A stretch of DNA of 64,000 nucleotides from NCBI GenBank assembly GCA_951406725.2, contig OX597815.1:43028001-43092000 (forward strand). The letters run 5' to 3'. The position numbers were made by a program, and so were the translations under genes. Below the pieces are notes generated by a model. It was not told the origin of the DNA and searched no databases. It saw only the letters and a program-made list of their open reading frames with translations. This DNA is from Octopus vulgaris (Eukaryota). Of this stretch, positions 1,611 to 50,769 are shown piece by piece; within the stretch, counting starts at the first letter, position 1, and the number at the start of each line of letters is the position of its first letter.

Positions 1611-1820
1611 AATGTGACCGCGTGTGTACCGTTGGCGATTTTTTTCCTTCGTCTTCCCTTCTTTGGATCTTTCCTTTACCTATGTTTCTGACGAAGAGCT
1701 CCGCTCGAAGCGTTAAACCCTCCTTCTTTCCTTCTTTCCTGAGCGTCCAATAATACTATACTTGTTCCACGTCCTCGCGTTGTTGTGTTTTCTCTTTGTG
1801 TTTTCATGTTTGGATTAACT
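1611..1820 (+). mobile_element. ~210-bp non-coding Penelope-terminus-like unit carrying a hammerhead motif
   Basis: Near-identical reverse-complement copies at 34137-34343 and 50562-50769. The 3' end GGATTAACT abuts (TA)n. Confidence 0.8.
1684..1718 (+). ncRNA. Minimal type I hammerhead ribozyme motif (GAAA mutated to GAAG)
   Basis: GTTT-CTGACGA-A-GAGC-TCC-GCTC-GAAG-CG-TT-AAAC. Stems I and II pair. Confidence 0.65.
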
Positions 1821-2534
1821 TTATATATATATACATACATACATGCATATATATATATATATATATATATATATATATATGTGTGTGTGTGTGTGTATGT
1901 GTGTGTGTATTTGTTTGTGTGTGTGTGTGTGTGTGTGTGTGTGTGTGTGTGTTTGTGCGTGTGTGTGTGTGTGTGTGTGTGTATGTGTGCATGTGTGTGT
2001 ATGTGTGTGTGTTTGTCCTCCACCACCGCTTGACAACCGATAGGATAAATACTAGGCTTAAGAAAATAATAACAAAGAAGAAGTCCAGGGGTCGATCCAT
2101 TCGACTAAAATTCTCCAAGGCGTGTACCCCAGCATGGCCACAGTCTAATGACTAGTGCTGAAGAAAACTGCAAGCGCCAAGTAGTTCGCTTGAAACATTC
2201 TTGTCGTCACATGTCGTCTTAACGTGTATCGCGACTGTATTTAACGGGTTAGAGAGAGATGCAGGGGGAGGAGTTACAGGTCAGGCGAGGTTTGCACGTC
2301 CAGAAGAGAACCACCAGTCTAAGAGAAGAAAAGGAAAAAGAATAAGAACTCACAGCCGATAAATGACAATTTCTACAACGAACTTTTGGACATATTTATA
2401 ATCAAACAGAAAAAAAGAGTTGCTGCAATTGAATTCTGTAATTCCGGTCAGTTATTTATCTTCGTATCTTGATATCGAAGTATTTATCTGCTTTGTGATT
2501 ACAAACGAAGTTTCCACAAGACTATCATAAGAAC

Positions 2535-2705
2535 TCACAGCCTGTTCGTGAAATTGACGTGCAAGTGGCGGAGCACTCCACAGACTCGCGTACTCTTAAC
2601 AAAGTTCTCAGGGAGATTTAGCGTGACACAGAATGTGACGAGACTGACCTTCTAAATTAGTGGTACAACTCATTTGTGCCAGCTAAGTAGACTGAAGCAA
2701 TGTGA
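2535..2705 (-). mobile_element. SINE fragment (family D body plus family C-type tail)
   Basis: The reverse complement matches 9951-9990 and 16500-16615. Confidence 0.7.
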
Positions 2706-3951
2706 AATAATGGAAACACCTTAAAATTTCAAACAAATTATTTTAATATGGGGTAGGACCGCCTTTAGCAGTAATTACAACTTGAATTCTACCAGTTATG
2801 GACTCGTACCAAGTTTGAATTGTTTCCAAATAAATTTTTGTCCATTTTTCAGCTAAAGCAGTCTCCAGTTCTTATAGTGATGATGGTGGAGGATATCGAC
2901 TCCTTACTTGTTTTTTCTAAAATGCCCATAAATGTTCAATAATACTGAGATCTGAAGACTGCGGTGGCCAGATAAGATGTTCAGTTTCACTAGAATGTTC
3001 TTAGTGCCATTCAGTAACAACTTTAGCTGTGTGAATTGGTGCATTACCATCCTGAAAGACTGCAATTCCCTCCGGAAACAGTTCTGCAACCATAGGATGT
3101 ATTTGATCAGATAAAATGCTTAAATAGTCTTGATTATTAATTCTGCCATGAAGAGAAACCATTGCGCCGGCAGATTTCCAGGATATAGCCCTCTCCCCCA
3201 GGTCATCACAGATCCTCCTCCATGTTTAACAGTTGGAAGAAGGCAGTCTGGGTCAAATGCTTCCTTTGGCTGTCTCCACACGTATACTCGACCGGTGGTC
3301 GGAAATAAGGTAAAGAATGACTCGTCCGAGTAAATAATATTCTTCCACTGCTCTAGGGACAAATTCTGTAGGTTTTCACTCCACAGTAAATGCTTTGCAA
3401 CGTTTGTTTTTGAAAGTAGTGGTTCTTTGATTGCCACCCTCCCGTGCAATCCGGCGAACTTTTTTTGTGGAAACTGGGTTCTCGAGGTGGTCATTAAGCT
3501 CTGTAGTAATTTTCGGAGCTGTATTTTTGTGATCCTTTCTAACAATTCACGTAAGAGTCCTACGGTCCCTATTTGAAAGTTTTGATTTTCTTCCGGAGTT
3601 TTGTTTCGACGAGGACGTTTTTCTCTCTTTCTCAAAGGCAGTCATTACTTTCGAGACAGCACTTATTGATACACCAAACTATTCAGCTGTTTTCGTTACG
3701 CTAGCGCCTGCCATACGAGCACCAACAATTTGACCTCTTTGAAAGTTCGATAGATTTGTCATTTTAATGAATTTTAATTACCTTTTTCTGATGATATCTT
3801 AAAAGAAATAGCAATTTTAGCAAAACATTTTAAGCAACAGAAATAATAAATAAAAAAACATAAAAATAAACAAGCTTTTGATAGTTTTATAGATATTTCA
3901 AAATTATGATGCTATGATGCTAGGTGTTTCTATTATTTTGTCCAACCCCTG
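2706..3951 (-). mobile_element. Tc1-like DNA transposon, DD37E spacing, decayed
   Basis: Right end AGGTGTTTCTATTATTTTGTCCAACCCCTG-TA. Partial left TIR AAATAATGGAAACACCT. Confidence 0.9.
2743..3762 (-). pseudogene. Tc1-like transposase pseudogene
   Basis: MTNLSNFQRGQIVGARMAGASVTKTA, YSDES, TVKHGGGSVM, FQDGNAPIH, WPPQSSDLSIIEHLW, GGPTPY*. Contains stops and frameshifts. Confidence 0.92.
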
Positions 3952-4924
3952 TATGTATATACACATACACACACGCACACACACCCATATATATATATAT
4001 ATATATATATATATATATACATATATATATATATATATATATATATATATATACACATATAAATAAATGCATAAATAGATTTGCATTAGATATTATAGGA
4101 TCGAATATTGAATTTAAGAGATCTGAGCTATTTGGGTTAATATATACTATTGGGTGTCAAATGTGTAGATATCATTTATGTGATTGTAGGTGATATGTAG
4201 AATGTGTTATATTATCGGCTCTCAATTGCGTAAACATATACATTAAGTTATTTTATTGGTGTAGGTTGTGTAATGGATATACAGAATGGGTTGTGTTATT
4301 TTATTGGTTGGTAACTGTGTTAGGTATGTTTTGTGCGACTTACACAGGAAATCTTTTATGTAAATTGAAAGTGTGTCACATACATACAGACACACAGACG
4401 CACAGACGCAAACACACAGACACACACACACACACACACACACACACACACACACACACACATACACACACACAAAGTTATAGACTCAACAAATTTCACT
4501 ATGTAGGATTTGCCGATTGACTAAAAATGAATATGTATTCTTCCAAAAGTATTTCTCCATTCTGTTGTGTCAGGAGAGAGTCGATCTCTTTTAGTGGCTT
4601 ATAATTTAACATCCCCAGTACTAAATAGGAAATATACGTAGTAGATAATCACACCCCCATACCCACAATTGATATGTATATACAGGTAGAATAGTTAGTG
4701 ACCTGGTATGTCGATAGATGTTTGTATATGTGTTTGTGTGCGTATATGTGTATATGTATATGCACATGTATGTATGCACATGGATATGACAGTAAACAGG
4801 TAGACATACAGACGGATAGGTACATAGGTTATATGAACAGGTAAGCACACATACACACACATACACAAATGAAGACTGAAACACATGACCATATACACAC
4901 TCACTTTACACAAGGACACATCCA

Positions 4925-5090
4925 ACTAAAATGGAAATTACCACCTGTGTCATCTCTTGTGACCAGTTTGCTGGACATTGTTGTAGAGCTGAAAAAGAAG
5001 TAATTTCTACTCTTCTCCTCTGGAAGCCATCTACTCGCAACACCAGAGGGCACACACTCTCCTACCCTGATGTAATCTGGAGACACGTCC
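4925..5090 (+). mobile_element. RTE-clade LINE C-terminal fragment
   Basis: QFAGHCCRAEKEVISTLLLWKPSTRNTRGHTLSYPDVI fits the RTE C-terminal FAGHCxR...LLWxP motif. Confidence 0.65.
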
Positions 5091-49023: not shown

Positions 49024-49436
49024 ATTTTACCTCCTTTTCACCTTGTGTTTTGTTATGGTCGTTCTCTCTTCCCCAGTCTCTAGTACACTTCTAATATAAG
49101 CATTTAGCATAATTATTTTGTTTTTATTCTCCCCATCAACTTCTTGTTTTTCATTTTTATTTTCTCCGTGTATGTATCCACCTGCCGTCTCGTCTAAAAT
49201 GTGCTAAAATGTGAATGTACATTTTTTTTTTCATGCCGTCTGGATCCCAGAACATCTAGTCTTGGTCCTTGGCAATCAACTAGTGACATGACAACGGGGC
49301 TGCATCATCCGGATATATTCCGAGGCGACACGACATGACAATTTAAGTGGCGCCACCTGCCAGGAGCCGCTTCCTGTCAATCAACCACGTTCAAAATCAA
49401 ATCATGAATAACAAAAAAAGAAAAATATATATTAAC

Positions 49437-49705
49437 TAACCTGCCTTCGTCTCTAACTTTGCAGCATCCGCTGCAAGCCATGGTGTCGCCGCCCGTAATG
49501 CGGAGGAGAGAAAAATTAATAAATACTGGGGCCTAGACGTCTGCTATCAGTTTGTGTCCGTTACAGTCGGGATGTCAGTTATTCTGGAACCCCGTACTAC
49601 CGATTTCCTCCGCAAAATAAGGATAACGGCAGCCCATCGGAGAAATGAGCCCCACGAGGTGGAATGGCTGCTGCAGCGAGTGTCATTGGCCATTTTCCGT
49701 TTGTT
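49437..49705 (+). mobile_element. CRE-clade RLE retrotransposon C-terminal fragment
   Basis: GVAARNAEERKINKYWGL...FLRKI...EWLLQRVSLAIFR fits AAxxAExxKxxKY...QRLSxAIxR. Confidence 0.7.
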
Positions 49706-49939
49706 CTGGGGGTATGCGATCCATCGTCCCTTCCCCCTCCATCTTCCGCTGAGTTGCCCCCCTCACCACCACCACTTTTTATTTTTCGTTTTTTACTTTT
49801 CTCCCTTCTGTTCTGGAAAGATTCTAATAAAACCTCCCAAATACTTAATTACAATGCTGGTAAAATAAAGCATCTTCTCTTTAAGAATTGTTAAGAATCT
49901 CCGTCACATATCGACAGTAAAAGTCAATACAATAATCAC

Positions 49940-50200
49940 TACACGTGCCCTCACTACATCGCGGATTCTTCTCGCTAATATATGTAAATTTATATCGCGG
50001 ACTCCTTAGTATATCGCGGGTTTTCTGCGGCCGATAGGTATTTATATTTTTTTTAGATTTTAATTATTTTTGTGGGAAAATAAGCATTTTCACGCCTAAA
50101 AATTAATGAATTAATAAATAGAACTACAGTACAGTACTACACTGTGTAATGCATTAATTAAAATATATTAAAAGAAAATATATTGTGTACCTTAGATGAG
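49940..50200 (+). mobile_element. Tigger/pogo-like transposon end
   Basis: TA-CACGTGCCCTCACTACATCGCGG terminus with repeated ATCGCGG subterminal motifs. Confidence 0.45.
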
Positions 50201-50561
50201 TAAACAACGAATAGCATCCTGTATGGAAAACGTAATTCGGGAGGCAAGTGTGTGTGGTGTTGTTTTACATTTATAATAATATATATATATACAATTATAA
50301 AAAAACTCGGGAGGCGAGTTGTTTTGCACCATATATATATATATATATATATATATATATATATATATATATATATATATATGATTAATCAGCCGAAATT
50401 GCGAGGTTGATCTGGTTCTTGACTGAGGACAGAGAAAGCTTCGAATGACCCGTCCTTGTTTTTTTTTGTATCGTCTATCTTGATGTTTCGTTGTCCCTTT
50501 TTGTATCACCTAGTTGTCCGGATGTTTTGCGTTCTTGTCCCATTTTGTATTTTATATATAT

Positions 50562-50769
50562 AGTTAATCCAAACAAGAAAGCACAAAAAAACACAACAAC
50601 GCGAGGACGTGGAACAAATATAGTATTATTGGACGCTCAGGAAAGAAGGAAGAAGGAGGGTTTAACGTTTCGAGCGGAGTTCTTCGTCGGAAACATAGGA
50701 GAAGGAAAGATCCAGAGAAGGGAAGACAGAGGAAAAAAATCGCCAACGGTACACACGCGGCTACATTTA
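50562..50769 (-). mobile_element. ~210-bp hammerhead-bearing unit, copy 3 (motif 50660-50694)
   Basis: GTTT-CCGACGA-A-GAAC-TCC-GCTC-GAAA-CG-TT-AAAC. Flanked by (TA)n. Confidence 0.8.

What the first reader, a model, noticed from the sequence alone, without database searches (positions are those of the whole stretch)
1611..50769. Unit-length ~210-bp hammerhead-bearing retroelement family next to (TA)n
Seen: three close copies (1611-1820 +, 34137-34343 -, 50562-50769 -) and a diverged one (645-830). They share nearly the same 5' boundary and a GGATTAAC 3' end next to (TA)n. The consensus GTTT-CTGACGA-A-GAGC-TCC-GCTC-GAAA-CG-TT-AAAC is a complete minimal type I hammerhead with palindromic ACGT stem III, and each copy has a different core mutation. 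Known: Penelope-like elements carry such minimal hammerheads, proposed to cleave as dimers, and retrozymes are non-autonomous hammerhead retroelements. Inference: this is a non-coding retrozyme-like or solo-pLTR family mobilised by Neptune-type Penelope elements.
Basis: partly seen in the sequence, partly recalled or inferred. Interest (0 to 1): 0.72.

Follow-up and report, generated by a model that had tools for sequence, protein, structure and literature searches.

The report
Solo ends of a Neptune retrotransposon
These ~210-base repeats are the lone end pieces of a known kind of jumping gene (a Penelope-like element), present in over 11,000 copies in this genome; most carry a core change predicted to weaken their self-cutting RNA motif, and they likely arise when the enzyme copies back only as far as the start of the element's own RNA.

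Summary
The three close copies are real. The fourth is a distant relative. The unit is not a separate family: it is the terminal repeat (pLTR) of a Neptune-type Penelope-like element of this genome. It is joined to the leader and ORF in 15 of 29 ORF-bearing loci and flanks both ends of complete elements. Solo copies number at least 11,243 against 54 leader hits. The minimal hammerhead fits the published PLE type, but 77 of the first 100 exact cores are U4C (CCGACGA), including the youngest subfamily seen. Retrozyme features fail: only 20 exact head-to-tail junctions were found, and copy ends do not lie at the cleavage site. The 5' boundary is real: 17 of 30 copies chosen by their 3' end start within 18 bases. 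It persists in a hairpin-less subfamily and sometimes carries an extra G, which suggests a capped transcription start copied after internal priming (inferred; no RNA evidence). The scan reached the same reading before, on this genome and others. Verdict: new member of a known kind, with a testable mechanistic clue.

The parts
1603..1820 (+). Solo pLTR, copy 1 (older U4 subfamily); starts at the Inr-like TCATTC (A at 1605), followed by leader-like TTATATA and (TA)n
1684..1718 (+). Minimal type I hammerhead of copy 1; A15.1G at 1710; predicted cut after 1714
   Evidence: criteria from PMC4209133
34138..34346 (-). Solo pLTR, copy 2, (TA)n on both sides
34236..34270 (-). Hammerhead of copy 2; G12A; terminal helix I pair G-U (a common variant, 13 of 29 older copies)
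50562..50768 (-). Solo pLTR, copy 3 (dominant U4C subfamily), (TA)n on both sides
50660..50694 (-). Hammerhead of copy 3; U4C (subfamily state) plus one helix II mismatch
645..832 (+). Diverged relative of the pLTR (old copy or sister family), degenerate core
10073..11713 (+). 5'-truncated remnant of a different Neptune-type PLE family (RT thumb, CXXC linker, GIY-YIG, CA-rich UTR, its own terminal repeat with a hammerhead-like motif at 11590-11624). Context, not the parent: its EN is 47-48% identical to the parent family's

Best explanation
The unit is the ~215-base terminal repeat (pLTR) of a Neptune-type Penelope-like retrotransposon, and the solo copies are likely short by-products of that element's own reverse transcription. 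Shown: the identity with the pLTR; the (TA)n context; the fixed 3' end at the pLTR/leader junction; the sharp 5' boundary; about 100-200 solos per leader-bearing copy; U4C in most copies. The endonuclease nicks (TA)n, and RT primes internally at the pLTR/leader junction, helped by the leader's TTATATA resembling the target. It then copies back to the RNA's capped 5' end or falls off earlier. Hammerhead cleavage is likely not needed for this; the motif rides along from the parent.
For: Unit joined directly to leader and ORF in 15 of 29 ORF loci, and upstream in 16. Complete pLTR-leader-RT-EN-UTR-pLTR in at least 6 of 20 extended loci. CX4CXXC linker then C-terminal GIY-YIG; Pfam RVT_1 E 1.5e-5 and GIY-YIG E 0.002-0.03, both below cut-off. 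Exact counts: 3' 21-mer 10,341; core 11,243; 5' 20-mer 5,896; boundary-spanning 841; leader 54. In 30 copies picked by the 3' motif, 17 start at -5..+12, 1 at -16, 12 at +22..+131 and none further up; p about 1e-19 against a uniform truncation rate, with the window chosen after seeing the data. 29 of 30 copies that reach +12 stop by about -8 (by eye; 10 overlap the first set). The boundary persists in a subfamily without the hairpin: 24 of 30 stop at -12..+12 (by eye). An out-of-phase G stands before A(-6) in 6 of the first 100 listed of 1,942 hits, against 1 GA in 500 neighbouring positions (counted by eye; that an extra G marks a copied cap is recalled). 3' ends split 13 leader-like TTTA and 10 TATA of 30. 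Internal RT initiation just downstream of the pLTR, and insertion unaffected by hammerhead mutants, were shown in vitro for a Poseidon PLE (PMC11167929).
Against: No RNA start was measured. 5' pLTRs of ORF-bearing copies pass the boundary in 9 of 11 cases, against 1 of 30 solos (p 1.5e-6) and 6 of 30 in the youngest subfamily, so long copies did not come from RNA that simply begins at this site; read-through, a jump or a circle is needed. The Inr-like hexamer is changed in the younger subfamilies, yet the boundary stays. The extra G is seen in only about 10% of copies starting at -6 (in stored loci: 4 of 26 contexts, 3 independent). The internal-priming data come from a different PLE clade. 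No intact ORF was found among 20 loci.
Confidence: 0.6

Rival explanations
1. Solo pLTRs, or small pLTR-leader-pLTR deletion derivatives, are transcribed from their own internal promoter and re-copied in trans, like a SINE.
For: 18 of 30 leader loci are mini-elements without an ORF, and 3 share one junction, so they can be re-copied. PMC3846280 reports pLTR sequences sufficient for mobilisation in trans (passage). The solo excess is very large.
Against: Every solo sequence type sampled has leader- or ORF-linked counterparts. An apparent solo-only U4C subfamily proved to be sampling bias. Solos lack the downstream leader that the Poseidon RT needed.
Confidence: 0.2
2. Ordinary 5'-truncated tails of long RNA, with RT stalling at a hairpin or terminating at a target-like microhomology patch about 205 bases in.
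For: A 7-bp hairpin (-9.4 kcal/mol) spans the boundary in the older subfamily. Pass-through is higher in the hairpin-less subfamily (6 of 30 vs 1 of 30). 12 of 30 copies are scattered truncations.
Against: The hairpin z-score is only -1.4. The boundary persists without it (-2.8 and -6.9 kcal/mol regions, 24 of 30). Long copies pass it 9 of 11 times. A stronger TA-like patch nearer the 3' end stopped none of 30 copies. The extra G is unexplained.
Confidence: 0.12
3. A retrozyme: hammerhead cleavage (as a dimer) makes unit-length or circular RNA that a Penelope RT copies into the genome.
For: The older subfamily has an intact minimal core (26 of 29 U4). A few head-to-tail arrays of 3-4 units exist. 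Monomers are described for retrozyme families (bioRxiv 2026.07.22.740005). U4C kept a viroid infectious (PMC3088659 passage).
Against: Only 20 exact junctions at 17 loci among more than 10,000 copies. The ribozyme is mid-unit, and 0 of 30 copies start at the cleavage site. The majority core is U4C. Array junctions reproduce the linear ends instead of being circularly permuted.
Confidence: 0.04
4. Solos arise by DNA recombination between the two pLTRs of inserted full-length elements, as for solo LTRs.
For: Suggested for rotifer solo pLTRs (PMC3846280 passage).
Against: Full-length 5' pLTRs mostly extend past the boundary (9 of 11), so recombination would leave longer solos than are seen (1 of 30).
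Confidence: 0.04

Closest known systems
EN+ Penelope-like elements, Neptune (or Nematis) type, and their pLTRs (PMC8557442, PMC3846280, PMC8969392; passages read)
   Same: RT followed by a CX2-5CXXC linker and C-terminal GIY-YIG; partial-tandem pLTR structure; (TA)n targeting; 5' truncation; solo pLTRs; Inr-like motif in the pLTR.
   Different: Extreme solo excess with a sharp 5' boundary; a long CA-rich 3' UTR (about 1.2-2.7 kb); a 3' tail reduced to a few target-like bases instead of 30-40 bp.
Minimal hammerheads (min-HHR) of metazoan PLE pLTRs (Cervera and de la Pena 2014, PMC4209133; parts 1-2 of 4 read)
   Same: Helix I 4 bp, extra nucleotide between 9 and 10.1, G10.1-C11.1, palindromic 15.2-16.2, mostly single dispersed motifs.
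   Different: Helix II is only 4 bp (7-8 bp in the schistosome examples); U4C is fixed in the abundant and youngest subfamilies.
Metazoan non-LTR retrozymes (PMC7229834, passages; bioRxiv 2026.07.22.740005, parts 1-3 of 5)
   Same: Size, type I hammerhead, non-coding, related to PLE pLTRs, monomers occur.
   Different: Not organised in tandems; minimal instead of canonical ribozyme; identical to the terminus of a coding element; no circular RNA shown.
Poseidon element of Anolis, in vitro mechanism (Frangieh et al. 2024, PMC11167929; parts 1-2 of 4 read)
   Same: AT-rich target, a pair of 3' end forms just downstream of the pLTR, hammerhead dispensable for insertion.
   Different: Different clade; there priming needs no homology, here target-like microhomology is likely; tested there, inferred here.

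Membership tests
EN+ PLE, Neptune type | ORF with RT followed by C-terminal GIY-YIG endonuclease | tested here: met
   RT motifs and GIY-YIG in one reading frame of L187; Pfam hits weak, below cut-off; all copies seen are broken
EN+ PLE, Neptune type | CX2-5CXXC linker between RT and EN | tested here: met
   CX4CXXC in L131, L132, L179, L187; definition from PMC8557442
EN+ PLE, Neptune type | RT phylogeny placing it in Neptune and not Nematis | not tested
   No reference PLE proteins were fetched
EN+ PLE, Neptune type | Partial-tandem structure with pLTRs at both ends | tested here: met
   At least 6 of 20 extended loci
EN+ PLE, Neptune type | Insertion bias to (TA)n microsatellites | tested here: met
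   Nearly all of 30 position-ordered copies end in (TA)n or a related microsatellite; target duplications cannot be read in this context
min-HHR of PLEs | Core CUGANGA / GAAA / NUH | tested here: inconclusive
   Met in the older subfamily (26 of 29 U4) and in 23 of 100 exact cores; U4C in 77 of 100; none of the window copies is intact
min-HHR of PLEs | Short helix I, extra base after A9, G10.1-C11.1, palindromic 15.2-16.2 | tested here: met
   against PMC4209133
min-HHR of PLEs | Self-cleavage (weak, as a dimer or protein-assisted) | not testable with these tools
   The predicted monomer fold sequesters the core; needs an assay
non-LTR retrozyme | Head-to-tail tandem organisation | tested here: not met
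   20 exact junctions (spacer up to 30 bases) at 17 loci, at most 3-4 units, against more than 10,000 copies
non-LTR retrozyme | Canonical type I hammerhead with stable helices | tested here: not met
   Minimal motif; no Rfam match
non-LTR retrozyme | Expressed as unit-length linear and circular RNA | not testable with these tools
   No RNA holder on record; contigs only

The most novel reading that the evidence does not exclude
The solos are 'strong-stop' products: RT copies the 5' pLTR to the capped RNA end and then normally jumps to the 3' pLTR of the same RNA, as retroviruses do. This would build the pLTR-ORF-pLTR structure without a tandem template or a working ribozyme. It would explain the sharp solo boundary, the 9-of-11 pass-through in full-length copies, the 18 of 30 leader loci that are mis-jumps into the leader, and the success of U4C subfamilies.
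Probability: 0.15. Interest if true: 0.7.

Novelty: new member of a known kind. Interest (0 to 1): 0.3.

Why it matters
As a family it is ordinary: minimal hammerheads in dispersed PLE ends have been described since 2014. Its value is as a natural record of Penelope replication, which is still poorly understood. Thousands of copies mark a likely RNA start and priming site, and the lineage kept spreading after fixing a hammerhead core change, in line with in vitro data that cleavage is dispensable.

Tried and rejected
Rfam scans gave only microsatellite-driven miRNA artefacts. The repeat finder was swamped by microsatellites. A 75-base DNA search of the genome returned nothing because common words are skipped, so patterns were used instead. 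Inverted neighbours in L003 and L028 first looked like PLE inverted arms; their number fits chance at this copy density. The idea of a solo-only U4C subfamily (22:2 vs 4:20) was rejected once U4C was found in ORF-linked pLTRs: the long set had been selected with an old-subfamily pattern. A hairpin as the cause of the boundary was rejected. Sequencing runs: no RNA holder listed; the contigs laid cannot show starts or expression and are not used as evidence. The window's own Neptune remnant is not the parent. Lunse et al. 2017 on dimeric cleavage is not held and is recalled only. Dfam and Repbase could not be searched, so the family may already be named. Searches for print on this case (hammerhead+Penelope+octopus; octopus+Penelope+Neptune; Penelope+pLTR+solo; Penelope+pLTR+template switch) found no paper on it in the held library. 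The bioRxiv supplements were not seen.
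Full report
Observation. Three copies of a ~210-base repeat lie at 1603/1605-1820 (+), 34138-34346 (-) and 50562-50768 (-); copies 2 and 3 are 89% and 92% identical to copy 1, and each ends in GGATTAAC before (TA)n. The stretch at 645-832 is a distant relative (score 109 vs 33+/-6, 0 of 200 shuffles) without that end. The hammerhead geometry matches the minimal PLE type defined in PMC4209133 (parts 1-2 of 4 read). 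Rfam does not detect it. No window copy has an intact core.

Scale. The own genome has 2.8 Gb in 227 contigs; an octopus-like animal is my guess, not tested. Exact pattern counts are 10,341 for a 3' 21-mer, 11,243 for the core region, 5,896 for a 5' 20-mer covering the main subfamilies, 841 for a pattern spanning the 5' boundary and 54 for the leader; reversed controls gave 0. Forty evenly spaced 10-kb stretches held 4 near-full copies, i.e. about 28,000 (95% range 7,600-72,000), plus a few shorter pieces and diverged relatives.

Parent element. Two of the 30 best DNA hits shared extra 5' sequence. A pattern on it gave 49 hits; among the 30 fetched, many ran through a CA-rich UTR and two reached a GIY-YIG domain. 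One of them carries a broken RT-EN ORF. Searching with the 5' part of that ORF (904 candidates, 40 scored, 30 fetched including the query) showed the unit upstream on the same strand in 16 of 29 loci and joined directly to a conserved leader in 15 (two of these loci are near duplicates). Of 20 loci extended to 9 kb, at least 6 show pLTR-leader-RT-EN-UTR-pLTR; none has an intact ORF, and nearest-neighbour identities are 86-97%. [quoted passage not shown] Pfam support is weak and below cut-off. The linker and domain order fit Neptune or Nematis as defined in PMC8557442 (passages); no tree was made. So the unit is the element's own pLTR.

Ends. In the first 30 of the 10,341 hits by position, chosen only by the 3' motif, 3' ends were fixed. 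5' ends, relative to window 1611, were -5..+12 in 17, -16 in 1, +22..+131 in 12, and none further up. Of 30 copies reaching +12, 29 stop by about -8 (by eye; 10 overlap the first set). None starts at the predicted cleavage site near +103. A 7-bp hairpin spans the boundary in the older subfamily (z -1.4), but the youngest subfamily seen lacks it and still stops there in 24 of 30. The upstream limit coincides with TCATTC, an initiator-like hexamer (consensus recalled; an Inr-like motif in a pLTR is noted in PMC3846280). Among the first 100 listed of 1,942 copies starting at -11..-5, 6 have an out-of-phase G just before that A, against 1 GA in 500 neighbouring positions (by eye). I read this as a copied cap (recalled signature; suggestive only). 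The leader begins with TTATATA, and solo 3' ends are 13 leader-like and 10 plain TA of 30, consistent with priming at the pLTR/leader junction by microhomology.

Against a simple start-site model, 5' pLTRs of ORF-bearing copies pass the boundary in 9 of 11 cases (I dropped three that do not reach +12, one duplicate, one separated by TA and one interrupted copy). Of 30 leader loci, 10 continue into the ORF, 2 end, and 18 are mini-elements in which the leader (150-470 bases) joins straight to a pLTR by short microhomologies; 8 of these joints lie at the boundary and 3 share one joint. Random DNA deletion of a 5-kb element would rarely give this, so RT jumps are the likely cause. Read-through RNA, a jump between pLTRs, or a circle could each give the long copies; I cannot separate them.

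Ribozyme. 77 of the first 100 exact cores are CCGA and 23 CTGA (by eye; CpG decay can only inflate CTGA). U4C is in 29 of 30 copies of the youngest subfamily and 3 of 29 of the older long set, and it occurs in ORF-linked pLTRs. U4C lowers activity considerably in vitro yet left a viroid infectious (PMC3088659 passage), so the motif is predicted weaker, not proven dead. For a Poseidon PLE, RT starts internally and hammerhead mutants do not affect insertion (PMC11167929).

Retrozyme test. Non-LTR retrozymes are tandem repeats with canonical type I hammerheads expressed as circles (PMC7229834 passages); monomers and a pLTR origin are described in bioRxiv 2026.07.22.740005 (supplements not seen). 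Here only 20 exact head-to-tail junctions occur, at 17 loci, with at most 3-4 units and linear, unpermuted ends. Membership is not met.

Prior notes. Unchecked notes of this scan reached the same reading on this genome and on others; they are not counted as support. Verdict: a real feature, a new member of a known kind, interest 0.3. The residual value is as a record of Penelope priming, RNA start and template jumps.

Noticed in passing
window 10073-11713 (+): Truncated remnant of another Neptune-type family; its terminal repeat has a hammerhead-like motif with the same helix II arms as the unit but a 4-nt loop (11590-11624).
   Followed up: partly
L195-L221, L051 (G000 leader loci): Mini-elements pLTR-leader-pLTR of about 400-700 bases; one junction recurs in L199, L210 and L212 and in contigs of two runs.
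   Followed up: partly
L313/L314 and L324-L326: Head-to-tail arrays of 3 and 4 units (period 219 and 215); the first has intact U4 cores and the extra G at each junction, the best candidate for a dimer cleavage test.
   Followed up: partly
L176 7705-8569: A full-length element followed by two further solo pLTRs inserted in its (TA)n tail.
   Followed up: no
window 1450-1601 and at least 6 other places (e.g. 27673-27833, 38946-39105, 60054-60210): An abundant ~155-base SINE-like repeat; copy 1 of the unit abuts its 3' end.
   Followed up: no
window 58-276, 6501-6846, 40374-40954, 41717-42521 and others: Another abundant interspersed repeat family with internal tandem structure.
   Followed up: no
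window 37210-37560 (-) and 44381-44725 (+): Open frames that look like mariner transposase fragments (by eye, recalled motifs).
   Followed up: no
L157, L159 (pLTR position +11): Some subfamilies have a perfect splice-donor hexamer there and a pyrimidine tract ending in AG after the hammerhead; a possible intron around the ribozyme, no evidence of splicing seen.
   Followed up: no
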